Shown: positions 12,301-62,064 of the stretch, one piece after another
Layout: every line of letters begins with the position of its first letter
How positions within the stretch are numbered: position 1 is the stretch's first letter
IMG/VR virus record: IMGVR_UViG_3300028591_000191
Coordinates: 7,189-71,188 of that record
Reading direction: 5' to 3' (one strand)
Source of the DNA: a virus
Lineage: Duplodnaviria > Caudoviricetes
DNA length: 64,000 bases
Translations under genes and position numbers: made by a program
Notes under the pieces: model-generated
The model's database searches: none
What the model was told of the DNA's origin: nothing
What the model saw: the letters and a program-made list of their open reading frames with translations, nothing else

Positions 12301-15300
12301 CGTAGAGGATTAAAGGAGCACCTAGATAGAGTAAATAAGCAGATAGATGATCTAATAAAAACAAATGAAGATGATCTAGTACACAAGTTTGCTTTCGCAG
12401 TACAAGGCCAGACATCCGACGGAAAAGGTTTGTCTAATTATGTAAACAGCAAACAACATATACGAACTCTTGCAGACGTAGAAAACCATCTTGTATACAA
12501 CCAGGAAGAGCACGATATGCTCGTAGACGCTTACCTGGAGAATTTAAAATGGCAGGATGAATACGACAGTGCTAAAAAATCTCTAGAAAATTTCCTTGGA
12601 AAAGAATATAAAGACGAAAATGGAGATGTTCATTTTAAAGGCGGAAACGCAGTCAAAGTTCTTGAAGAAATAAAGAACAACGAAGATGCCGACGATGCAT
12701 TTGAACAAGCCGTCGAACAACATTTCTAGGAAGGTTTAAAAGCTGAACATCTGAAGGAAGAAAACGGGTGGGAGAATCCACAAATATATCCTGATACAAG
12801 AGAAAAAAATCCAGTATTGGACGCAAACGGAGATCAAATACAAGTTACATACGACGAACAAGGTCGTATGAACAGGCGTTTAGCAGATAATGAGACTGTT
12901 GACGATCTTGGGTTTGTATGGGAGTATAAAGACAATAAACCAGATTTTACAATAAATCGTATCAATCAAAACGCTCCTACTCCTGAAGATAATGCTGAAC
13001 ACGATAGAAGAATATTCAGAGAAACTTTTGCGAGCATTCAAGACGAGCAATTACCTCTTACTCCAGAAGGAATGGTGGAACGTCGTCAGAGATCGTTGTT
13101 TGAAGCAGCTAGAATGGAAGGATTATGGCCAGATCAAAAGAAAATTGTTGTCACTCCAGTAAGCGGAGCTGATCCAGACCATAAACATCTTGTTGAAAGT
13201 TATTATGAAACTCGTAATCGTCTTGTTCCGCCTTCTACAACACAACCTGTGATAGAAGTGCAACCAGAAAATCCTATAGTAAATCCATAGGATGAAGTTA
13301 TAGACAAGATTGAACGTATATATACCGAAGATAAAGAAAAGATACAAAACGATCCCAGTGGTTATCATACAACAAGTCAAGACTACTTTATAGAGCAGGA
13401 TGGTAAGATAATAAGAGCTTCTCGTGTACACAACGTAAAACCAGAATCGTATATTCAGGAAGATTAGAAGAAAGAAGTTGAAGATATATATCAGCATCTT
13501 GTCAATCAACCTAATTTAGAGCAGTTTTCAAATGAATACTCTCTTATCGCGACACATCCTTCTATATACGATGTTACAGAACGTGATGATTTTGATGGAA
13601 ATGTTGTTATCAAGTATATCGAAGACAACGCTGATGTATTCTTTGGTAATACTACATCAGAGAGTCGAAAAGAATTTGAAACAACTGTAAGACATTTGGC
13701 GCAGATTCTTGTAGATGCAAACAAAACTAAATCTTCTTCTGTTCTTGTAGGTAATATTGTTGACGAACTTGCTAGAAATTTCTTTAGCTCAGATATACTA
13801 TATAATAAGACTACTCAAAGTGGCGGAATAGAATGGTTATTCGACAAAATAAATGAGAATGACGGTAGAACGTATAGAGAGTTATATAGAAACAATATTA
13901 ATGCGTTTACAACACTCATTAAAGAATTGTAGTCACAATACAAATATTACGTCGATACGTTAGGTTGGAAATTATCTACTCTTCCATTTACTGTTCGAAA
14001 TCAATTTGATGATTTAGGTTGGGTTGCTGGTCAAACTGACATGATTGCTGTAGATAAAAACGGCAAAATTCATATCATAGACTTTAAAACATCTAAGTAT
14101 ACATTTGAAAGTGAGTATGTAGCAACAGATAGGGCTATACGACTTACAAACGAGTATGCTAGTCAATTGAAGTCTCTTACAGAGAAAGATTTCTCTGGAG
14201 ATAGAAGCATCAAAGCAAAACGTATATTGCGCTTTATAAAGAGCGACGGTAATAAAAATATAGACCTTAAGTGGATTCCTGAAAAGAGGGATAAAAACAA
14301 CAATGTCATATAGAGCGGACATGCTGCCATTGTAGAGAAGAGAAAACCATTCTTCAGTACTCCAAACAAACAGTATGGTCAAGAATTGTCTGCATATGAA
14401 GATTACAGCAATCAGCTTACTGCATACGCTGAAATGCTTAAGGCTAATGGATTTGACGTTTCCTCTATAGAGGTTCTTCCTTTTAAGGTTTCGTACGATT
14501 ATGATTTTACTGAACCTGGAAAAGGTATCGTAAACATAACAATGCAGTCTAGAATGCCACTTATGTTAAGTAGTAAGATGAAGACTATTCTCGATGGTGT
14601 TGAAACTAGAGATCAACAAGCCGTACGAATAGCTCAAGAAAACTTACATAACAATATAGGTCATCTTCAATACAAGTTAGATCAAATAACTGAAAAAATA
14701 TCAGACGATATATTTAATGAGTTATCAGAACAAGGAAAACTCATATACTCTGACTTTATATCTGAAGCAAAGAATGTGTTGGTAAGTGCAGAACAAGCCT
14801 TATACGATAGAAAATCTGAAGATATAGACGAGTTAAATGCTCAAAATGACACTGTAGACGACGTTTTAAGCCGTTTTGACGAGGTTTTAAAGGACTTGCG
14901 GGCAGATTATAAGCAGGCTATGGCAAAGGCTGCTGAGCAGGCTATAAATGAGGCTAAACGAGACCAGCAAGATAAGCGAGTATCTAAGCAAGACTCAGAA
15001 GAGGTGGCTGGAGTTATTCCTGCTACTAATAAAAGAGATAGTGCTGGAAATACTAGCCATTCTAATTTAAATTATAGAAGGGTTACTGGTGATCCCGAAT
15101 TGAGTCGAGCTACATTGGCTCCAAACTTTATAGACGAATCTGACATACGCCTATACGTAGAGGGTGATGAAATCTATGCGGATATACAGTTTGAGGGACA
15201 TGTATGGCAACGTGTACCTATTGATTCTAAATATCAAACTATTGGAGGCCCAACATGGATTCCTAATAGTAAGAAGTTGTACGATGATATTGTAAGACTT

Positions 15301-18300
15301 CAAAACGAGCATCCTGGTGCAAAAATAGTACCAGTAAGAGCTACGATGAATCGTACAGCAGGTCGTATGAATATTCTTGTCGACAAGGATAGAAGTCCTG
15401 TATATCAAGATGTAAGAAAATCTGACCTATTCGCAGGACAGGATATATACGATATCGAGTTTTCTTCTTCATACAAGAGAATAGGATATGTAGATCAACA
15501 TGGAGTTGTTCAAACTTTTGAAGATGGAAAACAACAGCCAACTCCTCTATATCAATGGTCTGATCCTAGAATGTCATCTCAACCAGGAACACTTATCTAT
15601 TTAAAACCTGTTCCGAAGAACGAATGTCCAAACAATAAAAAGACGAACAGAGTAATTGTAGCAATAGATAGGGTTAAGCTTAGAGACAATGATATTAATT
15701 TCATTGTAGAAGCTTTGACAAATCCAGACCAACTTGATAGGCCATACTTTAAGGAGATAAATGGTAAAGTTTATGATCTACACGCCACTAGAAGACAAAT
15801 AGCAGGATTAATGCTTCCAATAGTGGACAACCCTCAGCAATTAGGAAATGCGGATTCTATTATTAGAGATCCAAACAATCCTATGGTGGTATATATAATG
15901 AAGCGAACAGATCTTGCTACAGGCGGTACAGGAAGAGGGCGCTTTGATCTGTCTACTCAACAAGGAATAGACGATTTTAAAGCAATTTTGTCTACAATGT
16001 CTATCGCTGAGAGACATGACGTTTTGTCTAGTAGACTTGGTTCGTTTGACAAGACAGAAGGATCTTCACTTCCATTCGGAGGAATAAAACAGTTCTTTAT
16101 AGAACAGCGTGGAAATATTACGAGTGTAGATATTACAGATGCAATTAAGTTCGATCTTGAGGACTTCAAAACAAATACTTCTAAGAGTGGAGTTAAACGT
16201 CAAGGAGTAAACGGATTTGCTTATTATTTGAAACATGGAATGCTCATTACTCAGTATGGAGGAATGTTAAGTTCTAATGTTGAGATAAAAGATGCAATGC
16301 TAGAAGATGGTACTGTAGGACCAGTAAACGTCGCTCCGAGTGGCGTGCAAGAAGTTGCTACTATAGGATCTCTATCTACTACCGATGGAACGGAGATTGA
16401 TTCTAGTGATATTGATTTGTTAAAGACTTGGGACTATCGTGGAAATAGAAAGTCTTTATCTGAAGAGAAGGCCAGAAAACACATAAAGGAGATTCTTGGA
16501 GATAATATTCCTGTAGAATTCCATCAGACATTCTTGAAAGCTGTATTTGGAGCTGCACACGTTGTAGGTAACTGTAAAACAGACGCTATTATACTTTCTA
16601 GTATGGGGTGGCCTGGCGTAGAATATCACGAGGCTTTCCATAGAGTATTTGAAATGCTGTTACCATCTCACGAAAGAGATAAGATATATCACAAGATTGC
16701 TGATAGAATAGGCGTAGAGCTGTACGATTCTGATGGTAATGAGAATAAGGCTGCTTTCAGAGAGGTTGCAGAATATGCTGCGGATCGTTATATGGATCAT
16801 ATGAATCACCATATGACAGACGTAAAGATTCCGTTTATCACCAAGATATATAATAAGATACACGATTGGGTATCTGCTCTATGGCACTTCAACGATAGAG
16901 AACTGTACAAAGTATTTGCTAGAGTAAATCGCAAAGAGTTCGTAAATGCAAAACCTTCTCAACAAGCAATAGACAGATTTAATAGACTGTTTAAGAATTT
17001 GCATTGCGAAATACACGGCGTTCCTTTGGATAATGTAGTAAACAGACCAATGTATGATAAATTACGTGAGAACGTAATGTTCTGTATACTGCAAGGTCAA
17101 AACGTAGATCCATCTGGTAGAAATATACAAGAGATTGGAAAGCACATCGATAAAGAAACATTCTTAGCCGGAGTTGAAAAACTGAAAAAGAGTAACATAG
17201 ATATATTTGGAGAATCTACAGATATTCCTACTGTTGGCCAGCTCGCTATGAAAGAGATCTATGATAACTTCGACAATGAGTTCTTTAGAGACGATATAGC
17301 AAACCTCATTTCTGCAATATCTACTGATTTTACAAAAGAATTTGAAAAAGAATCTACAGAAGATGCTCAAAGCGATGATGTAACTAATGCAAGTATTGGT
17401 GAACATACAAGAAGTTCTTATGAATTTAGCAGATTCAGTAAGACATCAAGTAGAGTTAGATTCTTCTTTGCAACAATTCCCGATACAATGTATGAAAAGG
17501 CTGTTGTAAAGGATAACAACGGTAATGAGAAAGTTGTCATGAAAGTCAAACTTGCTCTAAATGAGTTTGGTCTTCCACAATATGCTCCAGTAAACGCCGT
17601 ATTTAACGAGTTCTTAAATTTATTCCATGACGTTGATACATTGTCTGAATTAAAAGCAAGACTTGAATTGTATGCAAAAGAAGATCCATTGTATGAGCGT
17701 ATGTATAAAGCTTTTGATAAAATATACAAGAGTACATACAGTCTTAAAGATGGTGTTCTTACTAGAAATTCAGATCAAGAAGCATTGTTGGTACAGTTGA
17801 TGAATGTTATTAGATCTAACAAACATAACTTTGATATTGCGAGATCTACTACTACAAACAACATGAACGGTATGCATCGTATTATAATACAGACAACAGA
17901 TGCTGATTATAATGCTACGTTCTATCCAACACAGTGGAATCAAATGCTTGTAAACGGAGGAACTCCAATTGTAAAAGTATCGTCTAACGGCAGCTTACAA
18001 TTCAATCCCGCGATAAAAGGTGCAGAAAACAGTTTTGCAAGAATAGCAGATATATTGTCGCATGCATCTGAAACGCGAAAAGCTGAAAATAATGCAGTAT
18101 ACAACGACGTAGGTATAAAAGAATGGCTTATAAACGCTCTAACCGACGGAGAAAATAATGTATATTTAAAACTTCGAGTAAACGGTAAATATAGCTATTA
18201 TGATAACCCGAAGAATCCGGAATAGTTAGAAGTAGTGAAAGATAAGATAGTAGACATATTGAACACTCTTGGTATACAAATATCTGGAGACGAGTTTAAT

Positions 18301-21300
18301 TACATGCTTAGAAATAAGTATGGATCTAACGATTATGAAGCACTTGCAAAAATGTTTATGTCTACGTCTAGAACTGACTCTATGGCTACGTTCTTACAAT
18401 TCTTGAAAGATGTTGCTCCAAACGGAAAACTATAGAAAGAAGTACGTATTAAAGGTAAGCAAGTAAAATTAGAAAACGCTTATGCAAAAATGGCGTTTAT
18501 AAGAGATCTTGCGAACTGGAAATATCAATATAAGCATTCTCATGATCAACTCACAGTTCTTGCTACAAATAACAATAAATTCTACGAGATATCTGATAAT
18601 AATTACGCATCAGATGTTGTTCGTATGATAAATAAGAGAACAGAAGAACTTGACGAGTTATTGTCTGACCCATTCTCTTACTTTGAAGGTGAAAAAGATG
18701 TTACCGGAGAAACTCCGAAATATGGATCTGTCATACTTAAAGAAATTACAAGTAATAGAGATGCCTTTATTACTCTTAGAAATTTTGTAGGATTTAAGAC
18801 AGATAAACGCGGTGATTACGGATCAGATTACTTCGAGATAAGTAAGCGAGAAGATTACGTATCTAAGGCTACCATACTTGAACAAGGTGGTATAATAATG
18901 CCTACTCTTTCTGATAAAAAGACGTGGTTATATGTAGATGGTGTAAAGCTTCCAGGACTTGATTACAATAATACTGTAGACGATGATGGAAACACTACTC
19001 CATTTGCAGCAGAACAGCTTGGAGATCAATTCGTAATATCTGCTGACCCTATGTCACAATTAGACAATGTGTTGTCTCAAAGAGAAGATGTAGTAGATCA
19101 GTTTATATCGTACGCATATTCTGAATATGAGGCCATAAAGAAAGCTGATAGAGACCTTGACGAAATGGAGAAAAATGGCACAAAGTCTGATGAAGTAGCT
19201 AATTACTACAAATCTGAACAAGGTGCTAAATTCTCATCGCTACTTGGTGTATGGGTAAATACATATAAGAAAGGAAAAGACGGTCAAAATGTTGTTTCTG
19301 GAGAGAAATTTATATCGTTTAATAACAATAAAAAGACTCGAAAGAAGAATATAGAAGAGGCTGAAAAATATTTCTTTAGAGCTGATAGAGATACACAAAG
19401 AGCATTGATCGCCAGACTGTTACACAAACGTTTGTTACAAGAAATAAAGACGTGTACTGAATTAGGTTTGATTAAAAGAGTCGACGGTACAGATAATTTG
19501 TTTGGCGATTACGAGAACGTAGGTCTTAACTCGCAAGCCATCGACATTATATACAAATCTATAGTAGCTAAGAACGGTCATCCTAAAGATGCAATAGCAA
19601 CAGCTAAATATAAATCCTTAGCTGTTATGATATATCTAAACGATATTTCTAACAAAGCTATAATGTCCGGTCAAGAGTTTGAGCGTGTATTCTCAGGAAA
19701 TCCAGCTTTCTATAAATGGAAGTACGATAAAGAAACTGGAGTACTCACAGATAGAACAGTCGACGAATTAAAGCGTCTCGGAGGTGTTGTATCTACTGGT
19801 AATAATAACTTTATAGAGTTAAAGGACGTTCCTGAAAAATATAGAGATGAAAACGGTAATTTCTCTGGAAAATATATATGTGCCGAGGTAGACAACGAAT
19901 TGATTGAATCTCCACAAATAGATCTTATCGAAGAGAGAATGTTGTATGGAGAGATTCTTACCGCAGCATATAACAAAGAAGAAACTTCTAGATTGAACCA
20001 GTATAGAACAAGATACAACGACTTGCTTAGAGAATTATCAAAGGAAGAAAATGACCTTTCTGAGGAAGATTTGGAGTGGATACAGAATGCAGATCCTGTT
20101 AAAGACGAACAGGAAATCAGAGAGGACGTATCTAGAATGCTCGATTCTATTGGAATTGATGACATTAAGAAACTGCTCGACGAAACTACTTTACAAATTG
20201 CAGAGAGAAAAGCAAAACAAGCTACTGATAGTTATAGACTTAAGTTCAAAGACGGCAAAGTAGACGATGGTATTGATGTTGCTGACGGTGGCGCATACAT
20301 TACAGACACGATGGCAGAAATGCTTCTTAGAATGAACGGAAACTATAGCACAGATATAGAAAATGCGTTCAAAATTCTAAGAGAAGAGAAAACTTCTACG
20401 CTTATGTAGAAACAATAGGCATATAATAAAGTTGTAACTACTGTTATAGGATCTCAGAAATATACTGCGTTTGGTAGACGTAGACACGCTACTACAGGAA
20501 TACAAGTTGCTTATTACAATAAAATGGCATTGTTCCCATTGTTTAAGAGTATTGCAACAGGAAAGATGCAGAATGTATATAATAAGATGATGTCTCAAGG
20601 CATAGACATGCTTATGGTAAATTCTGCTGTAAAGGTAGGAAGCCAGGGATCTAAACCTATTGAATGGAATAATTTTGCACAAACTCAAGAAGATTCTAAT
20701 ACAAAGCCTACATTTGACGAAGGATTTGAGTTTAATACATACGAGCAGAAATTCTTGTATCTAAGGAAACAGCTTAATACTGATCCAAAAGAAGAGTCTA
20801 TGATGAATATGGGTACTCAGATGACGAAAGTTGTTATGTCTAGTTTGTTTGACGGCCGTACTTATTATATGCAAGACGGTACAGAAATGAATGGAACAGA
20901 GCTTCGTAATGATATTATGAACGCGATTAACACATTGTCGGACAGAGGTTATCATAATATACTTACTAGATTTTTTAAAACAAACGGAAAAGGAGAGCTC
21001 GTTGATAAGGACGGAAATGTAATTGGCGACAAGTCTTCTGGTAAGGTACTTGATGAAAAGAAATTTGCAAAAGAGATTAGGGCAATGATGCAAACTAAAG
21101 ACCCAGATAAGAATATTATTGACGGTCTTGAGATTGTAGAACAAGAAGATGGTGACGGGAAGGTTACTAAACATATGAGATTGCCTTTGAATGCTATTTC
21201 TAATTCAAGTTGGTTAGAGAGTGTTCTTATATCTTCTATTAATAGTAAAGTAATTGATATTGAAACTCCTGGTGCTGCATTTATTCAGAGATCTGTATGG

Positions 21301-24300
21301 GCTATGGAGGGATCTACTATGTTTGAGAGATCAAACGGATCTATTCAAGGAGATGAAGATCTTCCTGCTTCTATTAATGGTGGAAAACGTCTACAGATGA
21401 TAAATGAAGAAGGTTCTATGGATTGTGTAGTATCGTTCGATTTTATTAAGAAGATGTTTAAAGGAGAACTTCCACAGGTTCCTATTAGAGATAAGAATAG
21501 AAATATAATCTGGGATCTTGTACCTGAAACCGACAAGAACGGAAAGGTAATAATGAAGGACGGTAAACCTGTATATAAACAAAAACGAGATAAAGACGGA
21601 AATCTTGTTGTAGATAAAGAAGGTAATCCTGTATACAAGCGCAAGATACGTATGAGAGATATGTCTATAGATGAAGCACGTCAATGGCTTATCAATAGAG
21701 GTATTATCGGAGAAAATGCTACTGCAAATATTATAGGTTATCGTATTCCTACACAGGCCCAATCTTCAATTCACGCTCTGCGTATTGTAGATATACTTCC
21801 TGTTGTAAATGACACTGTTATACTTCCTGCTGAGTTTACTAAGATTACAGGTTCTGACTTCGATATTGATAAACTCTTCTTATCTTCTATACAGTATACT
21901 GTTTCTAGAGAAGAAGGCGAAGACGGTAAGTTCCATTAGACAGTATCTAGTACGTTTAAAGAAAATAGTTCAGCATATTATCAGAACAAACTTCTCAAAG
22001 ATTATATTGCAGTATTGTTAGACTGGACTTCTCACGAAGACAAACGTCAGCGTACTACAAATATTCTGCACAGATCTATTGATAATGATACTAAGCTTCT
22101 TAAGGATATTATTAAAGATATTGAGACCGGAAAACCGGCAAGCGTTGAAGAGCCTTATGGATTCTACTCATTGAGTGCACAAACAGCGTCTAAGAATGAT
22201 TATATTACAGGTAAAATTGGTATCGGTCCATTTGCCCTTAATAATAATAACCACATTCTTACAATGATGTATCACGTTAGATTTAAGCATATTGAATCTA
22301 GTATAATGAATTCTCTTGGTCTTGAAAGTCTCGATGGACGTGTTGATAAAGACGGTGAGTCTATCATGTCGTGGATTTCAGCGCTTATTAACGCCCACGT
22401 GGATATTGCTAAGGACCCATATATCAGCAGATTAAATGTAAATCCATTTACATACAATATTGTCAACCTTCTTGTAAGAACTGGTTTAGGTAAAAAGACT
22501 TTCTATTTTACTTCTCAACCTATTATGAAAGCTCTTGCAGATGCATATGTAAATGCAGGTGCTTTGTATATGTCGGATCCTCACAAGGGAAAATTCAAGT
22601 TGCAGCAAGAAGCTGTTGACGAATTCGCAGAGGAGTATTTCAAAGAACTTGGAGATGATGCTATCAATAAGATAAACATTATCAAAGAAGGAGGTGCCGC
22701 ACACTCTAAAACAAGAGCTAAGATAAATGAAGATATTGCAAAACTATTTAATAGCAATGATTTGATAGCAGGTGCAAAATCAGTAGAAGTAAATAAGCAG
22801 CAGCAGTTGCTTGTATATCTCGCATATCTACAGTTTGATAAATACGCCAATGCTCTGTCTAATCTTGTCAAATATAGTAAAATTGACACAAAGAAACAAG
22901 GAAAGAGTATTGTTGAACAAATGATATATCAAAAAGGATATCAGAGAACATTTGACACTACTAGGGAAGATAACTTGTTTGATCCTGTCGGTTTGAGTGC
23001 TATGGAAAACGATTCTTATATTGCAACTAAAACTGAAAATGCAATAAGTCTTACAAAAGATATTCTGCAAAGTCAGTTTATACAAAGCACTCCAGCATTC
23101 CAAGGTAGTCTTGATAAGATATTGAAAGCTGTTGGAAGAGAAGAATCGTTATCTGTAAATCTTGTAAATAAAGCTGTAAATGCGCTGAGCGCTGCAGTTA
23201 AGTCTAAGTTCTTTACTGACACTTATGTTCCTAGTATAACAACCATTCCTAGTTATATGCATGATCTTGTTAGCGAAAGTTAGGAATATCTTGACTTTAA
23301 AATAACAAAGCCTGGGTATGAAATAGAATTATCTGGAACAGTTTATCACAATCTAGAATCTTATTGTAAAGGAGGTGTAGCGTGGCTTATATATACAGGC
23401 GCAGACAAGAAACAATACTAGATTCCTTTAAATATAATTGGAGCAGATAACACCAATAATAAAATATATGTGGATAAAATGCTTCAAACAAACAATCTAC
23501 ACGGTAAGATTTTATTAAAAGGCGGTAAAAATACTATCTACGACAGATTTATGAGATTACAGGTTGCTATAGAAAGTAATCCGCAATTTGCAAAACTTAG
23601 GTCTGCTTCTGGAGAAATAACAAATAGACTTCTTCAAATGATTGTTCCTGGAACTGTTACTGAGTATAAGAAAGGCTTCATTGCTGGTGAACATCCAGAT
23701 ACCTATGAAACGTCTAAGTTTATTAAGTTGTTTAACTTTGTAGAAGACAGTGGTAATACTGCAAACTATATAATTGATGGCTGGGATGAACTTCTTCAAT
23801 ATACAGATGACGAACATCCTCAAGCTCAAAAGATTATACGAGATTTTGCAAGAGACCTTATTGTTTATGCTTTCATTACTTCTGGTGATAGAGGAGGATT
23901 TACAAAGATGTTTAAATACGTTCCTGTTTCATGGAGAGAGGAGTCTGGTTATGGTCAATATATCCACGATAAACTTGCTGAGTATTCTATTGGATACGAA
24001 ACAGACATCGATATAAACGATGTATTGCTCAACAACTGGTATGACAACGAACTTGTTCCTACATATTATCTTGATGATAATAAAACAAAGACTTCTAATT
24101 TCATGAAGTATTATACTACTAAAGATAATGTACGGTTAGGGTTCCCATCAATACTCGCAGCTCTTCATACTGTGAATGGTAGACTTGAACCTTCTATAGA
24201 TCCTAGAACTGCTCCCTTGTATATAAAAATACCTAGACGCAAAGATAAGTCTGCAGAAGATAGTCAGCGTAGATTTACCGTGTATAAAATGCACGCCGTA

Positions 24301-24660
24301 GCTATGAGTAACAATGGTGTAGAATATCCAGTATATATAAAAGTAAATCAAAAAGGAAACCAAGTTTCTGGAGGATTTATTATAACCGAATACGGCAGAT
24401 CTGATAATCTAAACGCTCCTGAGTATTATATAGACGAAGAGGTTCTTAAGAAAGTATATCAAGCTTCTACTGTAGCAGATCACATAAACGCTGTAAAGAA
24501 AGCGCAACCTATATATGCTTCTATTGTAGAAGGTCTTAATAGGGCTTGGAATAAAGATTCTCAGAACGGAGTAACAGACCAACAGATACAAGAAAAACAT
24601 AATTAGAAGTTTGATGATTCTTAGTTCTCAGATGAAGCTATGAAACATTGTAAAAGTTAA
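9394..24660 (+). CDS. Virion RNA polymerase polyprotein, ~5088 aa: PD-(D/E)xK nuclease, zincin protease and two-barrel RNAP (TAG=Gln)
   Basis: All gaps between 13 same-frame track ORFs were read by hand: only TAG (19), no TAA/TGA until 24658. Catalytic GSDFDIDK (DFDID 21856-21870), DVADGGAYI, GYRIPTQ, TLSDK; HEAFH 16627-16641; GQTDMIAVD..IIDFKTSK ~14030-14097 followed by NQLTAYAEML. Confidence 0.9.
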
Positions 24661-24665
24661 GTGAT

Positions 24666-27600
24666 ATGAATGCAATATGTCCAAATTTAAGTAATCCCGA
24701 TGTTGCTAGGGAATTTAACGAATTAGTTGAAGCAACGAGTGAGAAGGCGGCATATGCTATATGGTCGCTTAACAATGGATACGCTATAGATAAGGCCCCT
24801 AACGGGGCCTAGTCTAAGCTATTTGAAGGTCTTTTGAATTATTTCGGTGGAGATAGAGTTAAGGCGATAAAGGCAAAAGCAAATACTTTTGGCAAACCTT
24901 TTATGGACTGGTTTGGCGATTGGGAAAATAATCCTGATAATGCTAGTAAAGCTGTAGATGAAAATGGTGAACCTTTAATAGTATATAGAATAGATGTTTC
25001 CGATTTTACAGTTTTTGATAGAAATCATTTAGAGGATACAAGACTTAGCACTTATGGAAGTGGTTTTTATTTTTCTAATGATTTAGAAAGTGTAAGAAGA
25101 GTTTACTCAGAACCAGGTAGAGATGCTAGAGCTTTCTTTTTAAATATGAAAGATTATGATTTATATCATTATGACGAACCTGTTTCATTGTACGGCGAAA
25201 TGCCAAAAGATAGAATTATAACTTTTGAACATGCTGGGGATGATTTTTATAAAGAATATATAGTAAAAAATCCTAACCAAATTAAATCTGTAAATAATGA
25301 CGGTACGTTTACTGAAGGAGATAACATATACCATAACTTACAGGGAGCTTCTGTAGAAAGTGTACAAGATGTAATAGACATTTTATCAAGACTTCTTACA
25401 CGAGAAATAGGATTTAGACCATCTAGAGCAAAAGATAGTTCTCATGTATATTATTCAAGAACATCTATTACTAAAACACAAGCGGAAAAAAGATTAAAAT
25501 CACTTCTTTCTTTATTTGGTCTTCCTGAAAATTCTGCAAATATATCTGAATATGGAAATATTCACTGGAATAGAAATATAATTTCAGCTTATATAAATGA
25601 TATTAAAGACGTAATACAGCACAGTGAAGATAATTCTATAGAAGAGAAACAAGCTCTTGCCTATTTTTTGATTGATAAATTTGAACACATTAAAGGAGTT
25701 AAATTTAAATCCCTAAAGGGCGAAAATGGTCATTTTGAAAATGGAGAAGTAGTCTTAAATAAAGATGCGTCGCTGGACGTTGCTGCAGAAGAGTGCTTAC
25801 ATCCATTTGTAGCGGCTTTAAAGTATGAAAATGAGGAATTGTTTAAAGAGCTTTTAAAAGAAGCTAAAAAAGACTTTAAAACACTTCATCTAGAGATACA
25901 GGATAGATACGGAAACAAGCGTGGTCAAGATGTTGAATTAGAGCTTGTAACGCAAGCGTTAGCTAGACATTTTGCTGATTTGTGGGAGACTCCTGTAAAT
26001 CAAGAAACAGGAGAAAAAGAAAAATCTATTTGGGTAAAGGCGTTGGAGTACATATTAGATTTATTCCATTTTAATAAACTTGATGAAATAGATAAGAATG
26101 TAACTCTCAAACAACTTGCAGAAGCTATTTATAAAGCGGAACATATTAATATAGACAAGGTATATTTTGAGAACAAAAAGTATTTTAACTTGTCTCAACA
26201 AAACTAGCAAGATGTTGATAATTCTATAACAAGACAGATGTACAACGTAGGTGTTCAGCTAGAGCAAGAACGTTCCCAATATATACAGTCTGTACTAAAT
26301 CAGTATAAATAGAATAATCAAAACGCTACTCAGCAAGACTAGTCTAGGGTAATAACTGCTGCTAGAAAACAATTTGATGATAGTAAATCTAATTAGATAT
26401 TACATCAACAATAGATTCAGTTAGCTTAGAAGTTCGGATTGCAAATGAATACAAAAGGTTTCTTTGAGAGTGCCGAAACATCTCAGAAGAAACTTATGTT
26501 TGAGCATTTTGTAAACAGCTTACAAGAAGACACTTTTAAGGCTTATACGCTTGAGAATATCAACAGGATTAAATATCAGTAGGTTGGTACAATTCAACGC
26601 GCCACAAGCGCTGCAAATGTGCTCTATCAGGCTATATTTGATGGTGATATCACTACATTAGATAAGGAGTTGGCCAGAGACTACGTTAGAATGTTCTGGA
26701 CATCTCCTCTGATCCAATCTGCTCTAGAAGTAGTAAGTAATAATAGTAAAGACGCAAAGAAGGCAGAAGATGCTCTCGTAGATAGAATGACTACAGAACC
26801 TGTAGATTCTAGAGATTCTAGCATTGTAGAATGGTTTAGAAACTTCTGGTCACAACTTAATAGTCTTGTAAAGCAAATATTTGGAGTACATACTTTTACA
26901 GATCAACAGAAAGATGATATTTTGAAGGGCGTAGATGCTGCATTTATGCTCGCAGAAGACCTTGAATTAGCAGAAGAAAATTCTAGAATACTTGATAGAT
27001 ATGATGGAAACTTCTCTACTTCTGATTTGTTATCTGAAAAAGATAAGAATGTTCTGTCTGATATTTATAAAGGAACAAAAACTAGATTGCGTTCACAACA
27101 AGCTCGTACCGCTCAGAATCCTAGTCTAATATCCGACCTTAAGAGTAGATTGGAAATTATAGATGGAAAAAATCAAGATTCTGTAGAAGACGTATTTAGC
27201 GTTATTGAAGACTTCTTGATATATGCTAACCAAGAGATTGGAGAAACAAGACATCTTATAGATAGCACTTTCTTGACGGCGGGTTCTATGGATTCTTGGA
27301 ATCCTCAAGAGATCAACTTCATCCAGCAAGATCTTATTGGCCATTACGACAGCTTGTTGAACAGTATATATGAGCTGTTCTCAGATAAAACATCAGCTAT
27401 TAACAAATACAACGAACATCGTGTAGCTACAAATCCTGATAAGTTTGATTTAAAGCATTATTTATCTCAGCTTATACGTAATGTAGACTCTATTAAAAAG
27501 GATTATAATCAGAGTATTGTAAAACCATATGTACGAAAAGTTCTCACTGATTATGTAAATGAGCAAGATGCTATTACAGATAAGAAGACGTTCGTATATA

Positions 27601-30600
27601 ATATGGAACGCTGGTTTGAACAAGATTCTACTTACGGAGACCTTGCTGCAGGAGAGGTCCTTATTGGAATGGCTTCTAGGTCTAAGAGTCCTATTGTTCG
27701 TATAGTAGAGAAGATGATGTCAGATGCTGAATTTGACACTAACAGAGAGGTATTGAAGAAAGGTAACGAACTTGTTCGTCTATATAATAAAATACGTCCT
27801 TCTGGTTCTCAAGTAAGTTGGAATAACTGGCAAAAACGCTTTATGGAGCTTGATAGAGAAGGCCTTCCAACTGGATACTTTATAAGAGAAGTAAATGAAG
27901 GATTGTTCTTTAAGGATAGAGATGAATATGAGGCTACTCTTAGAGCTGAATTCGGTCTAACTGCTGACGAAGAAGGACACACTATCTTCCCAGAAGAAGA
28001 GTTTACGAAAGATGATAGTATATACAACAAGTATCACGATAAACTCGACGAATGGTTGGATAGTAGATGTAACAGACGTTATACTCTTCAGTATTATAAA
28101 GATAGACGTAGATACTTATCTCCAAAAACTATTCAAGCTCAGAATAGAATATAGAGGTAGATAGACCTTATTCTTGATAAGTGTAGAATGGAATCCGGTT
28201 TAGTAGACCTGTCTAAACTTACGTTAAATGAAAAGAGTCAACTTAATCATTATCGTAGAGAAAAGCGAGACCTTGGCAGTCATTATATATTTACAGAAGG
28301 CTCTGATGGCATTCTAAGAGTTGAAGAGAAAACAGGAGACGCTTTAAAGATGGCAGATGAAATATCAGACTGGAATAAATATATAACCGATAAAGTTAAA
28401 TATAAACCAGACTGGACTGCATTTAATCAAGCAATTTCTGAGTTAAAAAAGAACGGAGCTACTCAAGACTAGATTGATGAATTTAAACGTAATAACACTG
28501 TTACTAGAATTACTCCAGAGTTTTACGACACTTTGAATAGAGTGCTTGGAAAATCTGTGACTAGTAAGAAATTAGAGCAGTTAAAACATCGTCATAGAGA
28601 GATAATAAATGCTTTAAAAGAAAGACAAGGTGCTGGACGTCATAATCTTAGCAAGCTTGGTTCTGGTCTTACTACTGATCAATCTGGATGGAGAGAATTG
28701 TAGAAGATAGAACAAGAAATGGCTAATGAGAGAAAGGAGCTTATAAAGAAAGGTATGAAAGGTACACCCGGAGATATCGAAGATTTAAGCTTCTCTGATG
28801 TAGCTGCTATGTTGTACGTTCCTATAAGTGATACAGAAGATAGATCATATCTCGACGTACTTATAGAACAATGGAGATCTGCTGCTGTTTCTAATACAGA
28901 CTTAAACAATATATTTAATCAATTGTTTACGTTTAAAGACGAAAAGGGCAAGATAAGATACCTTAAAGCATTCTCGTACCTTACTCCTAGAGATTGGACG
29001 TTAACTATAGAAGGCAAACAAATCTCATGTATCGAATCTTTACCAGGAAGTGAATATTCTGAGTTAGACGAAAGCTCTCCTTTTGTAAACGATAAGTTCA
29101 TTAAGAATGGTAAATCTTTGCAAGTTAAGAAAGATATGTATAAAAATGAAAAATATACTGAGCTTTCTGACGGCGAAAAAGAGTTCTTAAATAAGCTTAT
29201 GCAAACTATGGACGAAGCTAACGAGAGAATACCTAATAAATCTCTATATAGAGACGGCAGGTTGCCTCAAATAAGCGGTAGAACAATGTCTGTATTATCG
29301 AATACAATTAGAGCAAAAGAGTGGTCTACAGCTTTAAAATATCCATTTAGAAAGTTTGGTGTAAAGTATTCTGAAACAGATACTGATGTTACAACAAACA
29401 TGGATTTAGCTAGACGTCCTGACGGTTCTGTTGTGAACAATATCCCTATACGATTTGTAGAAAAGCTTCCAAATACTGCTGTTCAAACTACTGATGTATT
29501 AGGTTCTGTAATTGCATACTTTGATATGGCTTGTAATTATGCAAACAAGTCTAAAAATCTTCCTACACTAGAGCTTATTAAATATGCTGTAGACCCATCT
29601 CAAGCAAAGAATGGAAATAAAATGGAAGATCAATATACAAAGATTGAGAACTTATTAGACCAGCGTTATTATGGTAAGGAAACATCTTTTGGGTTCAACA
29701 GTGAAGAGAAAATAACTCCATCTAAACAAAGAGCTATTCAAGCAACTAAGACTATAAGAAATCTTGCTGCAGTGGCAATGCTTGGTGTAAACTTTACTAC
29801 TATTGAAGTAGGTTACATCGATGCATTATGTTCAATGTTGGCAGATGCCGTAGGTGGAAAATATTTAACTGGTAGCGATATGCGTAAAGCATTTGCACAA
29901 TGTATTGCTCATACTGGTAAGATGATAAAAGGTCTTGGAAATCCTGTTGTAGAAGATAAGCTTGTAGCTGCTATGTAGTTCAATCAACTTAGTAGAAGTA
30001 ATTCTGAGATATTCTCTTCTACAGACAAATTCAAATTAGATAGATTTGTACACGACCACCTTCTTATGGGAGGTTATACTCTTGCGGATTATATGATTAA
30101 CTCTATGATGCTTACGTCTACGTATAATCATTATAAACTTCTTACAAACCCAACGACTGGTAAGCAGCAGTTTATGTCTAAAACAGATGCTATAAATATA
30201 TTTACATCTGTTGGATATACTGAAAAAGAAGCCGTAAAGCTTTGGAAAAAATCTAAAGACACTCTCTGGGATGCGTACGAATTAAAAGACGGGTTGTTCG
30301 TAAGAAAAGATAAGTATAAAGATATAATAACCAAGAAGCTTGAAAATCAAATTGCAGGTAGATTGCGCGACAGAACAGCAATGTATAATGGTGTCGTTCC
30401 TATGACAGAAAAAGCTAAAATGCAACAAAACGTGTTTGGTTCATTTGTTACACTTATGCGTAATTTCTATATAAATACATATTGGGATAAATTCAAGACT
30501 GGTGGAGATTACGTTACAGAAGATGGAGACCATCATATAGGATGGTCATCTGAGTACAAACGTGACGACCTTGGATTGGTGAATCTTGAAACAGGAGAGT

Positions 30601-31370
30601 TCGAAGGAGCAGTATTTAAAGATTTCTGTCGTGGTATGTACAAAATGGCAGCTAATTATAAGTCTGCATTCAGAAGCGGTATAATGAGTTCTTTAAATGA
30701 ATCTCAGCGATATGCTGTAAAAAGATGTCTTACTGAACTTGGTACAATAACAGCACTGATGTTTATGATGTTATGGAGTGTTGCTTTTGCTCGTACAAAT
30801 GATTATGATGACGATAAAGACCCTGTATGGCTCGTAAATATAGCTGGTATAATGCCTTGGTCAAAAGAGAAATTACTTACTTTTGATTTTGATAACGCTG
30901 ACAAAAAATTCTTTGACTTCTTAAGGTGGAAGTTAGCATTGTTGTCGACAAGAGGATTTACAGAGCGACTTACATCTTGGTGGCCTCCTACGGTACTTGA
31001 ACTGTTTACGTCACCTTCTACAGCTAAGTCATACTTAGACGATGTTTGTACTATTTGGGATTTAAGTTTAGACATGTTCAGCCAACATGCCGATGACGAG
31101 ATTAAAACAGGTGGATATAAACATATGACTCGTAGAACAAGGGATGTACTTAAACTCACCTCTGCATTCGGTGTAGACAATCTCGTAAGACAGTGGCACA
31201 CCGACGGAATCAAATCTACATTTAACTACTATAGAAAACTTACTCCTACAAGTGCTATTGTTCCATCTCAGTCAGAATGGAATGAACAACAAGGCTTAGG
31301 CACTCACGGTGGTTAGAAATCAGAAGAAAACAAAACAAAGAAAAGGTCTTCTGGTGGATTTGTATATTGA
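24666..31370 (+). CDS. Large virion (ejected) protein, ~2234 aa, with ART-PolyVal-like and degenerate zincin domains (TAG=Gln)
   Basis: ATG 24666 (MNAICPNLSNPDV); one frame through track ORFs 24834, 26619, 28188, 28719 and 30066 with 14 TAGs; ends TGA. Motifs DWFGDW..SKAVDENGEPLIVY..GSGFYFS..EYIVKNPNQIKS and AEECLHP. Confidence 0.8.
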
Positions 31371-35451: not shown

Positions 35452-35676
35452 TTACAATATCCTACATTGGTGGTTCTTAATTCTCTGTAAAGTCACAGTA
35501 GTCATCATAGGATTTATCTCTTTCTTGTTAGAAAAAGGTACAGTAACATATCGGTGCTCTGCATTAGCAAATACCATATGTGTACTATTCTTATGATGTT
35601 CAAAGAATCCAAGAGTTCCAAGCAACGCTTTAAACTCCTTGTAGGAATAAGTTTTTAAAGCTTTCTTTCCTTTCAT
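35452..35676 (-). CDS. HicA-like RNase (74 aa)
   Basis: LLGTLGF..KNSTHMVF..VTVP..KEI pattern matches the HicA dsRBD fold, including its catalytic His. Confidence 0.6.
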   Translation of the reverse strand: MKGKKALKTYSYKEFKALLGTLGFFEHHKNSTHMVFANAEHRYVTVPFSNKKEINPMMTTVTLQRIKNHQCRIL

Positions 35677-35681
35677 AATTG

Positions 35682-35753
35682 CGCAAGGTGCCGGATTCGA
35701 ACCACATATACAGTATGGCTACTGTACGTTTTAACTATTTAAACTAACCTTGC
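35682..35753 (-). pseudogene. Degenerate tRNA-like element (possibly Gly-GCC derived)
   Basis: 72 nt; acceptor GCAAGGT/ACCTTGC, D stem GTTT/AAAC, stem TACAG/CTGTA with 8-nt loop TAGCCATA, TTCGAAT loop with a weak T stem. Confidence 0.6.
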
Positions 35754-35759
35754 CTTTTA

Positions 35760-35839
35760 TGGGTGCCAGATGGGATTCGAACCCACATTTCTATACAATA
35801 TTAATTATGTATAGACGTTACCATTACCTTACTGACTCC
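35760..35839 (-). pseudogene. Degenerate tRNA-like element with extended anticodon arm
   Basis: Acceptor GGAGTCA/TGGCACC (1 mismatch), T arm GTGGG TTCGAAT CCCAT, stem TCTATACA/TGTATAGA around TAATTAATAT. Confidence 0.5.
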
Positions 35840-52218: not shown

Positions 52219-52222
52219 ATTG

Positions 52223-52293
52223 TTGGATGACTCGGATTCGAACCGGGAATGACAGAACCAAAACCTGTAGTGTTACCATTACACCATCATCCA
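52223..52293 (-). tRNA. tRNA-Gln(UUG)
   Basis: TGGATGA/TCATCCA acceptor, GTGT/ACAC D stem, ACAGG TTTTGGT TCTGT anticodon arm, CCCGG TTCGAAT CCGAG T arm. Confidence 0.92.
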
Positions 52294-52478: not shown

Positions 52479-52480
52479 TG

Positions 52481-52554
52481 TGGACCATGCAGGGCTTGAA
52501 CCTGCGACCTCCAGATTATGAGTCTGTTGCTCTAACCAACTGAGCTAAAAGTCC
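52481..52554 (-). tRNA. tRNA with CAU anticodon, Ile2-type
   Basis: GGACTTTTAGCTCAGTTGGTTAGAGCAACAGACTCATAATCTGGAGGTCGCAGGTTCAAGCCCTGCATGGTCCA; body resembles bacterial lysidine tRNA-Ile2 more than initiator Met. Confidence 0.88.
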
Positions 52555-52555
52555 A

Positions 52556-52775
52556 TTTGCAGGCACTTAGGTAGCCTGCTCACCGACTTCACGCTGCCTC
52601 CTTGAGGCCCGTGTAGTCTGCAATGTTATAATTGCCGTTTAATTTTTATATCAAAGCGCTTGAATGACTTACTTTCTACTGCCGTCTAAACCAGTCAAGC
52701 CCGTATTGTTAAATATGGGTGGACCTGGGCGGAATCGAACCGCCGTCCGAACAGCTTCTCCTCAGTCACGCTAAG
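52556..52775 (-). ncRNA. ssrA: Circularly permuted (two-piece) tmRNA, tag GNYNIADYTGLKEAA*
   Basis: The 3' piece (GGAC GGCGG TTCGATT CCGCC CAGGTCC ACC, ending ~52718) precedes the 5' piece (GGGCTTGACTGGTTTAGACGGC, from 52702). Acceptor stem has G3.U70. TAAAC|GGC resume context; tag ORF 52636-52589 ends AA-TGA. Confidence 0.85.
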
Positions 52776-52996
52776 ATTATTTCGTCCTGTGGTTGACAAA
52801 TTGAGTATATGGTTAATACTACTCCACAGTCCTAGCTGAACGTCTTAATGATCAGTTAAAACATTCAATTTAAGGCTATTTTCAGGCTCTCTGAGCTGTT
52901 TTTAGTCCCTTATCTGGTAGCTACTCCGTCAAAGATGTTCAAACGGCTTAGATTGCCTTATTTTCACACTTAAATTACACTACATTGACCATGCTC

Positions 52997-59604: not shown

Positions 59605-60502
59605 ATGTCAATTTGAATTGATTTCAAATGAAGCACTGCTATTTTCACAAACCACAGTGCTGAGGCTTAATATTAACTTTTTAATTTTAAAGATTATGTC
59701 TATGCCCTCTGGCATATAGATTGATACTATATGAGTGAAACGAATGTTCATAGAAAAGTAGAGAGGTCGTCACCGCTGTGACTGAAACGAATACGAATAA
59801 TATCAACAACTCATTAAATAAGTACGTAAATTAATAAACCTCTCTAATGGTAAAACCCCACGGTCTTCTCAGATGGTGGGTAAAATTTCAAAAATATTAC
59901 ACCACTGTGTATGCCTATAATCAAAAGCAAATTTATATGAATAATAATAGACTTTCAATGAAAAAGGGGATATGGTTTACCAATTTAGCACCTACCCTCC
60001 GTAGAATGCGTATTGATAAGACCAGTATCCCCATAGTTTTACGTCTTTCTCAAGGACGGCCGTTTTCATGTACACAATTGATACCCACTAGTACATATCA
60101 ACTGTTACACCATCTGTCTCTATTGAGAATTTCTCCTGCACGTTATGCGAAACGTATCATTGGTTTACGGTCAACCAAATAGGGAGATGTTTCGACTGAT
60201 GAGTAATTTGTGAGTATTGTCTGAGTCAACTCACTTGCGGTCTCTCAACGTACACACCGCTTTGGCTATCCCACTTAATTTGGGCTTAACGACTTAAGCG
60301 AGCCGTTTTTGGTGAGCCTAGCTTTTCATCTCACCTGGAGGACTTCTTGCAGATCTCCTCTTTAACTGCCTTATGCCGAAGCAGCTTATGGTAGCAGTAT
60401 ACCAGAGCGTTTCAGTTTATCTTACGCACAACTTGATTGATTTCCGTCTTTCAGCAGATTCTCAGACGCCCTCTTTCACAATCATGTGGCCTGCTTATTT
60501 TT

Positions 60503-60557
60503 AACTGTTTCGTCTTAATTTTCAAAGACTCATCGGATGCCTAAAGGCATGACAGCT
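60503..60557 (-). ncRNA. Hammerhead ribozyme, type III (U4C core variant)
   Basis: AGCTGT C ATGCC-TTTA-GGCAT CCGATGA GTCTT-TGAAAATT-AAGAC GAA ACAGTT. Confidence 0.8.
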
Positions 60558-60618
60558 TAAATAATTTAAATACACCTATTCTCACGAACCAGTGTATTTT
60601 AAAGAACATGTTTAATGT

Positions 60619-62005: not shown

Positions 62006-62064
62006 ATACTGTTTCGTCGTAATCTGCCACGACTCATCAGGGGACATCTACATCCCGACAGTAT
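62006..62064 (-). ncRNA. Hammerhead ribozyme, type III
   Basis: ATACTGT C GGGA-TGTAGATG-TCCC CTGATGA GTCGT-GGCAGATT-ACGAC GAA ACAGTAT. Confidence 0.88.

What the first reader, a model, noticed from the sequence alone, without database searches (positions are those of the whole stretch)
52556..52775. Compact circularly permuted tmRNA in a recoded Bacteroidota phage
Seen: the 3' tRNA-like piece (T arm GGCGG/CCGCC, CAGGTCC-A-CC) comes first, then a ~14-nt spacer, then the 5' piece GGGCTTG. Together they form an acceptor stem with the alanine identity pair G3.U70. Helix 2 pairings exist (GACGGC/GCTGTT, AGTCAT/GTGACT), and the tag is GNYNIADYTGLKEAA-TGA. Total length is ~205-220 nt against ~360 nt for typical tmRNA, so most pseudoknots are missing. 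Established: two-piece tmRNAs are known from Alphaproteobacteria and some Betaproteobacteria and cyanobacteria, while Bacteroidota use one-piece genes. Inference: an independent permutation. It may rescue ribosomes stalled at UAG during the code switch, handle hammerhead-cut non-stop mRNAs, or replace host tmRNA destroyed by the HicA-like RNase, suggesting an RNA-based translation-control system.
Basis: partly seen in the sequence, partly recalled or inferred. Interest (0 to 1): 0.85.

Follow-up and report, generated by a model that had tools for sequence, protein, structure and literature searches.

The report
Mini two-piece tmRNA, crAss-like phage
This gut crAss-like phage carries a real, back-to-front, half-sized gene for tmRNA, the RNA that frees stalled ribosomes. 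It seems to derive from its Bacteroidales host's one-piece gene, and sister genes are labelled in public records, but I found no paper describing it.

Summary
On the minus strand, 52776-52555 holds a circularly permuted tmRNA gene. ARAGORN calls it permuted, with tag GNYNIADYTGLKEAA. Rfam tmRNA_permuted scores 70.9 bits against a cut-off of 47.

It belongs to a family of about 40 crAss-like contigs (Suoliviridae/Oafivirinae type). In these, the acceptor stem, T arm, a three-part helix 2, helix 5 and one pseudoknot after the tag all covary. PK1, PK3 and PK4 are absent. The mature RNA would be about 59 + 148 nt.

tRNA-Met starts 4 nt after the pseudoknot, so tRNA processing probably sets the 3' end of the coding piece.

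The Gly (GGC) resume codon, the sequence before it and the 5' tRNA-like half match Bacteroidales one-piece tmRNAs. None of the alpha, beta or cyano models reaches its threshold. This fits a separate permutation event.

The phage rereads TAG in its late genes. All 31 family tags stop at UAA or UGA.

RefSeq already labels sister genes as tmRNA (cr124_1, cr272_1, cr273_1). This scan has also reported the same family many times on other DNA (84 notes, at least 58 genomes). I found no paper that describes it.

New here: evidence for the pseudoknot, a corrected helix 2a register, and relatives whose permuted gene also carries a group I intron in the T loop.

The parts
52836..52868 (-). Upstream 13-bp hairpin with loop CUGAUCA (52855-52849). 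In most relatives it lies directly before the acceptor piece; here it is about 60 nt further upstream. Role unknown (leader, processing site or regulator).
   Evidence: Fold, (z -2.65 for 52777-52900). Loop conserved and stem covarying in relatives (alignments).
52718..52776 (-). Acceptor piece (3' tRNA-like half). Helix 2c strand 52776-52769; 2b strand 52768-52764; 2a strand 52754-52748; GAC; T arm 52744-52728; acceptor 3' strand 52727-52721; A73 at 52720; CC 52719-52718. The terminal A is not encoded. The true 5' end is unknown.
   Evidence: Covariation.
52703..52717 (-). Intervening spacer, removed during processing. At 15 nt it is among the shortest in the family, where the script's count runs from 16 to 201 nt.
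52555..52702 (-). Coding piece. Acceptor 5' strand 52702-52696; D-loop analogue 52695-52685; helix 2a 52684-52679; 2b 52669-52665; bulge 52664-52659; 2c 52658-52651; 14-nt linker 52650-52637; tag ORF; helix 5; pseudoknot; 4-nt tail.
52589..52636 (-). Tag reading frame: GGC (Gly) resume codon, 15 codons (GNYNIADYTGLKEAA), stop UGA at 52591-52589. The stop lies in the 3' strand of helix 5 (52618-52611 pairs with 52592-52585; inner hairpin 52608-52596).
52559..52584 (-). H-type pseudoknot after the tag, in the PK2 position. S1: GGUG 52584-52581 with UACC 52573-52570. S2: 52579-52574 with 52564-52559.
   Evidence: S2 shows more than 9 different complementary stems. S1 shows two compensatory double changes (AGUG/UACU in L028, CGUG/UACG in L021).
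52480..52554 (-). tRNA-Met (CAU). It starts 4 nt after the pseudoknot, so it is presumably co-transcribed, and RNase P cutting at its 5' end would release the 3' end of the coding piece.
   Evidence: In relatives a tRNA-like mini-helix occupies this place.
52222..52293 (-). tRNA-Gln (UUG), the next gene of the same small RNA cluster.

Best explanation
Positions 52776-52555 (minus strand) hold a functional, circularly permuted ssrA gene of a crAss-like phage.

Shown: the sequence anatomy, homology, covariation of every helix, and conserved position next to the phage sigma-factor gene.

Inferred, in order:
1. The gene is transcribed in the early/middle (standard-code) block together with tRNA-Met and tRNA-Gln.
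2. Host RNase P cuts before G1 of the coding piece (52702) and before tRNA-Met (52554).
3. Host 3' processing and the CCA-adding enzyme finish the acceptor piece after A73.
4. The two RNAs (about 59 and 148 nt) stay together through the 7-bp acceptor stem and a three-part helix 2. The outer section of helix 2 takes the place of pseudoknot 1.
5. Host AlaRS charges the RNA (G3.U70, A73) and host SmpB binds it.
6. On stalled ribosomes, translation resumes at GGC, 14 nt after helix 2c. It adds Ala plus GNYNIADYTGLKEAA and stops at UGA inside helix 5.
7. Helix 5 and the single PK2-like pseudoknot anchor the RNA at the mRNA entrance.

The likely benefit is extra ribosome-rescue capacity during infection, under the phage's control and with its own tag.
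For: Detection: ARAGORN calls a permuted tmRNA with a tag. Rfam RF04321 scores 70.9 bits against a cut-off of 47, over the full model.

Family: 44 IMG/VR loci match the tag pattern, and about 32 are called permuted tmRNA by ARAGORN. All 9 loci found through the neighbouring sigma factor carry the gene, independently of the tag pattern.

Covariation:
- 10 different acceptor stems, all 7/7 paired, always with G3.U70 and A73; 9 different T stems.
- Helix 2a, 2b and 2c strands covary.
- Cognate piece pairs fold at a mean of -18.6 kcal/mol against -12.1 for non-cognate pairs, in the same three-part helix.
- Pseudoknot S2 covaries, and S1 has two compensatory changes.
- Helix 5 is recovered by folding (z -2.98).

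Tag frame: never broken, with synonymous changes at codons 2, 4, 8, 10, 11 and 14.

Context: tRNA-Met abuts the gene. Helix 5 and PK2 are the parts reported to stay anchored on the ribosome (PMC8012679). An assembly artefact is excluded, because the same gene order recurs on dozens of independent contigs.
Against: There are no expression, processing, charging or tagging data. No SmpB gene was found in the 71-kb phage fragment, which is about 70% complete. CCA is not encoded. PK1, which matters in E. coli tmRNA, is absent. The tag ends in EAA (VA in a sister group), not the host's LAA, so it may not be a degradation signal. No promoter or terminator was identified. The sample used for the tag statistics was collected with a tag-based pattern and is therefore biased towards conserved tags.
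Confidence: 0.85

Rival explanations
1. Adaptation to the code switch. The phage tmRNA exists because the phage suppresses TAG. Amber suppression makes ribosomes read through TAG-terminated host and early genes to the ends of mRNAs, which raises the need for rescue. It would also read through host tag ORFs that end in UAG. The phage therefore supplies a tmRNA whose tag stops at UGA or UAA. This refines the best explanation rather than excluding it.
For: TAG read-through opens ORFs of 5088, 2234 and 1383 aa in the plus-strand late block. All 5 tmRNA-bearing relatives tested have in-frame TAGs in a late-gene homologue. None of the 31 family tags stops at TAG. The one-piece tmRNA of both Segatella copri MAGs, into which such phage contigs were binned, stops at UAG, with the next non-TAG stop at codon 43 of the tag frame. 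SsrA copes with suppressor-tRNA read-through (Ueda 2002, cited in PMC8012679). tmRNA acts at unassigned UAG (PMC6207430).
Against: Only 10 of 33 sampled Bacteroidales tmRNA calls and 4 of 32 from the Segatella genus sample use UAG. The host of this phage is unknown. The co-occurrence lies within one clade, so it is not independent evidence. No suppressor tRNA was found in the fragment. A recoded phage would avoid TAG as a stop in any case.
Confidence: 0.2
2. Decoy. The RNA mainly soaks up host SmpB, AlaRS or ribosomes to block host trans-translation, as proposed for the tRNA-like-domain-only molecule of mycobacteriophage DS6A. The tag would be irrelevant.
For: The phage encodes no SmpB in the fragment searched. 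DS6A provides a precedent (PMC4131195 and PMC11915505). The tag end differs from the host's LAA.
Against: The tag frame, the resume context, helix 5 and the pseudoknot are all conserved, with synonymous changes in the tag and no broken frames. A decoy needs only the tRNA-like domain.
Confidence: 0.08
3. Not a working gene: a chance match, a decaying relic, or an attP-type fragment of the host ssrA carried for integration.
For: Temperate phages often carry 3' ssrA fragments. A few relatives have degenerate T loops (L034 and L037).
Against: Both halves are present and covary with each other across the family. The sequence is not identical to the host ssrA 3' end. Rfam gives E 1.3e-11.
Confidence: 0.03

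Closest known systems
Two-piece (circularly permuted) tmRNAs of Alphaproteobacteria, a betaproteobacterial lineage and cyanobacteria (Keiler 2000; Sharkady and Williams 2004, as cited in PMC9004378; Rfam RF01849-51 and RF04321)
   Same: The gene order is the same: 3' tRNA-like half, spacer, 5' half plus tag. The tRNA-like domain is held together in trans. It matches the merged Rfam model above its cut-off.
   Different: It is carried by a phage of Bacteroidota. The resume codon is Gly GGC rather than Ala. Only one pseudoknot remains, and PK1 is replaced by an intermolecular helix. It is about 208 nt. The lineage models fail (beta 46.5 bits against a cut-off of 84). A tRNA or tRNA-like element marks the 3' end.
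tmRNA (SsrA) features annotated in RefSeq crAss-like phages cr273_1, cr272_1 (Buhlduvirus) and cr124_1 (Burzaovirus), Suoliviridae/Oafivirinae
   Same: They belong to the same family. The tags are related (GNINVVDYTGLQEAA, GNVNNIVDYTNVA). They have the same neighbours (tRNA-Met, sigma factor) and the same permuted order.
   Different: This copy has a much shorter spacer (15 nt against 70-76) and lacks the mini-helix, with tRNA-Met abutting instead. The upstream hairpin is displaced. The RefSeq features are unqualified 'tmRNA' labels with ARAGORN-style boundaries.
One-piece tmRNA of Bacteroidales (for example the Segatella copri MAGs: 397 nt, tag GENNYALAA)
   Same: Both use a GGC resume codon and share an A/U-rich sequence before it. 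22 of the 25 aligned 5' bases are identical, and both have ACCC after the acceptor stem.
   Different: The host gene is in standard order, has four pseudoknot regions and a 9-aa tag ending in LAA. Its stop is UAG in S. copri.
Two-piece tmRNAs of marine phages (Melnitz and pelagimyophages; 53 two-piece calls among 18,146 phage genomes, 50 of them marine or aquatic; PMC9004378)
   Same: These are also phage-encoded permuted tmRNAs.
   Different: Those resemble the alphaproteobacterial (SAR11) lineage and carry a glutamine riboswitch. This one is Bacteroidota-like and minimal.

Membership tests
tmRNA (SsrA) | tRNA-like domain: 7-bp acceptor stem from the 5' and 3' strands, G3.U70, discriminator A73 | tested here: met
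   GGGCUUG pairs with CAGGUCC, followed by A. These features are invariant across 10 covarying stems.
tmRNA (SsrA) | Canonical T arm and D-loop analogue, with no anticodon arm | tested here: met
   A 5-bp T stem with loop UUCGAUU. The conserved GG..U.GA and GAC motifs align to the Rfam consensus.
tmRNA (SsrA) | Tag reading frame with a resume codon, an Ala-Ala end and a stop in helix 5 | tested here: met
   ARAGORN reports the tag. Helix 5 encloses the UGA stop. The frame is conserved.
tmRNA (SsrA) | Four pseudoknots (PK1-PK4) | tested here: not met
   Only one pseudoknot is present, after the tag. The PK1 position is taken by helix 2c. Nothing lies between the pseudoknot and tRNA-Met. Reduced pseudoknot sets are known in other tmRNAs, so this does not exclude membership.
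tmRNA (SsrA) | Alanylation, SmpB binding and tagging activity | not testable with these tools
   These need biochemistry or proteomics. No SmpB gene is present in the phage fragment.
Permuted (two-piece) tmRNA, Rfam RF04321 | The 3' tRNA-like half lies upstream of the 5' half, and the score reaches the curated cut-off | tested here: met
   70.9 bits against a cut-off of 47, model positions 1-213. ARAGORN gives the 'tmRNA*' call.
Alpha, beta or cyano two-piece lineages (RF01849, RF01850, RF01851) | The lineage model reaches its gathering score | tested here: not met
   Beta is the best-scoring of these overlapping matches at 46.5 bits against a cut-off of 84. Two lower-scoring overlapping matches of the same clan were not listed.
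Two-piece tmRNA | The precursor is actually cut into two RNAs | not testable with these tools
   This is inferred from the tRNA-like ends and the abutting tRNA-Met only.

The most novel reading that the evidence does not exclude
The mini tmRNA is part of the phage's code-switch equipment. It would be a rescue system made immune to amber suppression, because its tag stops at UGA or UAA while some Bacteroidales host tags, including those of Segatella copri, stop at UAG. It would clear the non-stop ribosomes created when TAG is reread, and mark their products with a phage-specific tag. A fourth, phage-borne origin of the two-piece form would then be tied to genetic-code change.
Probability: 0.2. 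Interest if true: 0.8.

Novelty: new variant of a known kind. Interest (0 to 1): 0.5.

Why it matters
Two-piece tmRNA was described as having arisen in three bacterial lineages. This family would be a further, phage-borne origin, apparently from a Bacteroidota one-piece gene.

It is also a natural minimal design of about 208 nt: the tRNA-like domain, a trans helix in place of PK1, the tag with helix 5, and one pseudoknot. That shows which parts trans-translation can do without.

The family sits in abundant gut phages that reread TAG. This makes the long-suspected link between stop-codon suppression and ribosome rescue testable in a natural system.

In practice, annotators should expect this gene in Suoliviridae. 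They should also not read 'permuted tmRNA' hits in Bacteroidota MAGs as bacterial. The 2025 tmRNA database paper lists 48 such instances in its Supplementary Table 2. Two 101-kb contigs binned as Segatella copri carry the phage gene.

Tried and rejected
- Rfam on the cr273_1 locus gave no tmRNA_permuted hit at the cut-off, although ARAGORN calls the gene. The merged model therefore misses part of this family.
- The whole-gene MAFFT alignment A1 misaligns the acceptor 5' strand and the pseudoknot between subfamilies. I did not use it for pair counts. I used anchored extraction and duplex folding instead.
- The sigma-70-type promoter and terminator scan and a Bacteroides-type promoter pattern found nothing useful near the gene.
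- No SmpB gene was found.
- ARAGORN found no suppressor tRNA in the window or in the remaining 7.3 kb of the record. A short anticodon-loop pattern search was uninformative.
- An attP-fragment reading was rejected, because both halves are present and covary.
- The idea that the host tag stops at UAG was tested and holds only for a minority of hosts.
- The 186-nt spacer between tRNA-Met and tRNA-Gln does not fold better than shuffled sequence (z 0.05).
- Literature searches for permuted or two-piece tmRNA with crAss or Crassvirales found no description.

Full report
**What is there**

The window is part of a 71-kb IMG/VR virus record, about 70% complete. Its closest named relatives are crAss-like phages of Suoliviridae/Oafivirinae (cr272_1, cr273_1, cr124_1).

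On the minus strand ARAGORN reports tRNA-Gln, tRNA-Met and a permuted tmRNA with tag GNYNIADYTGLKEAA. Rfam 15 matches tmRNA_permuted (RF04321) over its whole length at 52589-52781, with 70.9 bits against a gathering score of 47 and E 1.3e-11.

ARAGORN's outer limits (52498-52811) overlap tRNA-Met and are not meaningful.

**Family and comparative support**

A degenerate pattern taken from the tag found 44 IMG/VR loci, mostly on contigs of about 100 kb. ARAGORN calls a permuted tmRNA in about 32 of them. The tags fall into two related types: GN.N[IV][AV]DYTGL[QK][EQ]AA, and GNVNNIVDYT[NC][VI]A or close variants.

I also searched through the neighbouring sigma-factor protein, which is independent of the tag. 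That gave 9 loci. Eight have an ARAGORN call, and the ninth has the gene interrupted by an intron.

Anchored extraction shows 10 different acceptor stems. All are fully paired and all keep G3.U70 and A73. There are 9 different T stems. The spacers between the two halves range from 16 to 201 nt. An assembly artefact is therefore excluded.

**Secondary structure**

Helix 2 is formed between the two pieces and has three sections.
- Helix 2b: 52669-52665 pairs with 52768-52764.
- Helix 2c: 52658-52651 pairs with 52776-52769, after a UUCAAG bulge in the coding strand.

Each section changes sequence between lineages while staying complementary. RNAduplex recovers the same three-part helix. Cognate piece pairs average -18.6 kcal/mol and non-cognate pairs -12.1.

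Helix 2c sits where PK1 lies in standard tmRNA. In a few relatives a small hairpin is inserted at the bulge.

A 14-nt A/U-rich linker leads to the GGC resume codon. The last two thirds of the tag lie in helix 5, and the UGA stop is in its 3' strand (z -2.98).

Directly after helix 5 comes an H-type pseudoknot. Stem 2 shows more than nine different complementary versions. Stem 1 (GGUG/UACC) has two independent compensatory double changes. So the RNA is not pseudoknot-free, as some earlier notes of this scan said. It keeps exactly helix 5 and a PK2-like knot, the parts reported to stay anchored at the mRNA entrance during trans-translation (PMC8012679).

Nothing else follows. tRNA-Met begins 4 nt later. 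In most relatives a tRNA-like mini-helix takes that place. I infer that tRNA processing enzymes define the ends. CCA is not encoded (ACCC here, and the same in the Segatella copri host gene).

**Origin**

Two 101-kb contigs carrying the family gene were binned into Segatella copri MAGs. Those MAGs have a standard 397-nt tmRNA with tag GENNYALAA.
- 22 of the 25 aligned bases in the 5' end of the phage coding piece are identical to it. Three tmRNAs from outside Bacteroidales (gammaproteobacterial, acidobacterial, Chitinophagales) gave 19 of 23-25.
- The sequence before the resume codon and the first codons are also alike.
- In a sample of Bacteroidales, 31 of 33 tmRNA calls resume at GGC. All family members do so too.
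- The lineage-specific two-piece models do not reach threshold (beta 46.5 bits against a cut-off of 84).

This supports a separate permutation of a Bacteroidota-type gene, but it does not prove it.

**Function**

Shown: an intact tRNA-like domain with alanine identity elements, a conserved resume context, and an unbroken tag frame with synonymous changes (with the caveat that the sample was tag-selected). The gene also has a conserved position in the standard-code early/middle block, near a phage sigma factor.

Inferred: co-transcription with the tRNAs, processing into two pieces, use of host AlaRS and SmpB (none is encoded in the fragment), and tagging.

The late genes are TAG-recoded. ORFs of 5088, 2234 and 1383 aa open only when TAG is read as sense. 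Five of five tmRNA-bearing relatives also show in-frame TAGs. No family tag stops at TAG. The S. copri tag ORF does stop at UAG, but only 10 of 33 Bacteroidales tmRNA calls and 4 of 32 from the Segatella genus sample do.

Published work links suppressor read-through and unassigned UAG to tmRNA action. A tie to recoding is therefore plausible but unproven, and I put it at about 0.2.

The hammerhead-like motifs at 62006-62064 and 60502-60558 lie between ORFs and score just below the cut-off. The HicA-like ORF is borderline. Neither is linked to the tmRNA by any evidence.

**What is known**

RefSeq already labels sister genes as tmRNA. A 2022 survey counted 53 ARAGORN two-piece calls in phage genomes, almost all marine (PMC9004378). 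The 2025 tmRNA database paper lists 79 phage sequences and 48 'permuted' instances in Bacteroidota genomes without comment.

I found no paper describing this family. This scan has reported it repeatedly on other DNA. I rate it a new variant of a known kind, of moderate interest.

Noticed in passing
L038:7931-8203 (+); also L019, L048, L021, L042, L009, L125:3667-4497: In several relatives the permuted tmRNA gene also carries a group I intron in the T loop. Rfam Intron_gpI scores 66-87 bits. The 5' exon ends ...AGGGGU, the intron ends in G, and joining the exons restores the loop UUCGACU. The intron is about 273 nt in L038 and about 800 nt in others, where it has opposite-strand ORFs without a Pfam hit. 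The 2025 tmRNA database paper treats 'permuted' and 'intron' as separate forms and names no combined one.
   Followed up: partly
window 62006-62064 (-) and 60502-60558 (-): Two type III hammerhead-like motifs lie between ORFs of the early block, at 45.1 and 42.3 bits against a cut-off of 48.5. The first has an intact catalytic core. The second has CCGAUGA in place of CUGAUGA.
   Followed up: partly
window 35506-35700 (-) and 35682-35753 (-): A borderline HicA-toxin-like ORF (26.4 bits against a cut-off of 27) overlaps or abuts a weak, odd tRNA-like sequence (31 bits). The tRNA-like sequence has a poor T stem and a non-standard anticodon loop. Another T-loop-like sequence lies just upstream, at about 35761-35780.
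   Followed up: no
window 1-32000 (+): The late-gene block is readable only with TAG as a sense codon (for example 9394-24660, 5088 aa with 19 TAG; 24666-31370, 2234 aa with 14 TAG). The minus-strand block from 32000 to 64000 uses the standard code. ARAGORN found no suppressor tRNA in the 71-kb record.
   Followed up: partly
L125:4534-4712 (+): In one relative, the spacer between the two tmRNA halves contains a small ORF of about 58 aa, so the spacer can carry cargo. L031 has a 201-nt spacer that I did not examine.
   Followed up: no
window 52836-52868 (-), and relatives just 5' of the acceptor piece: A conserved hairpin with loop CUGAUCA and a covarying stem precedes the tmRNA gene across the family. 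In this window and in L034 an extra hairpin of about 55 nt is inserted between it and the gene. Its function is unknown.
   Followed up: partly
L051 and L054 (contigs of 101.6 and 101.0 kb in Segatella copri MAGs); L053 (Succinatimonas MAG, 2.6 kb): Whole crAss-like phage genomes carrying this tmRNA are binned into bacterial MAGs. This probably explains the 'permuted tmRNA' records listed under Bacteroidota in tmRNA databases.
   Followed up: partly
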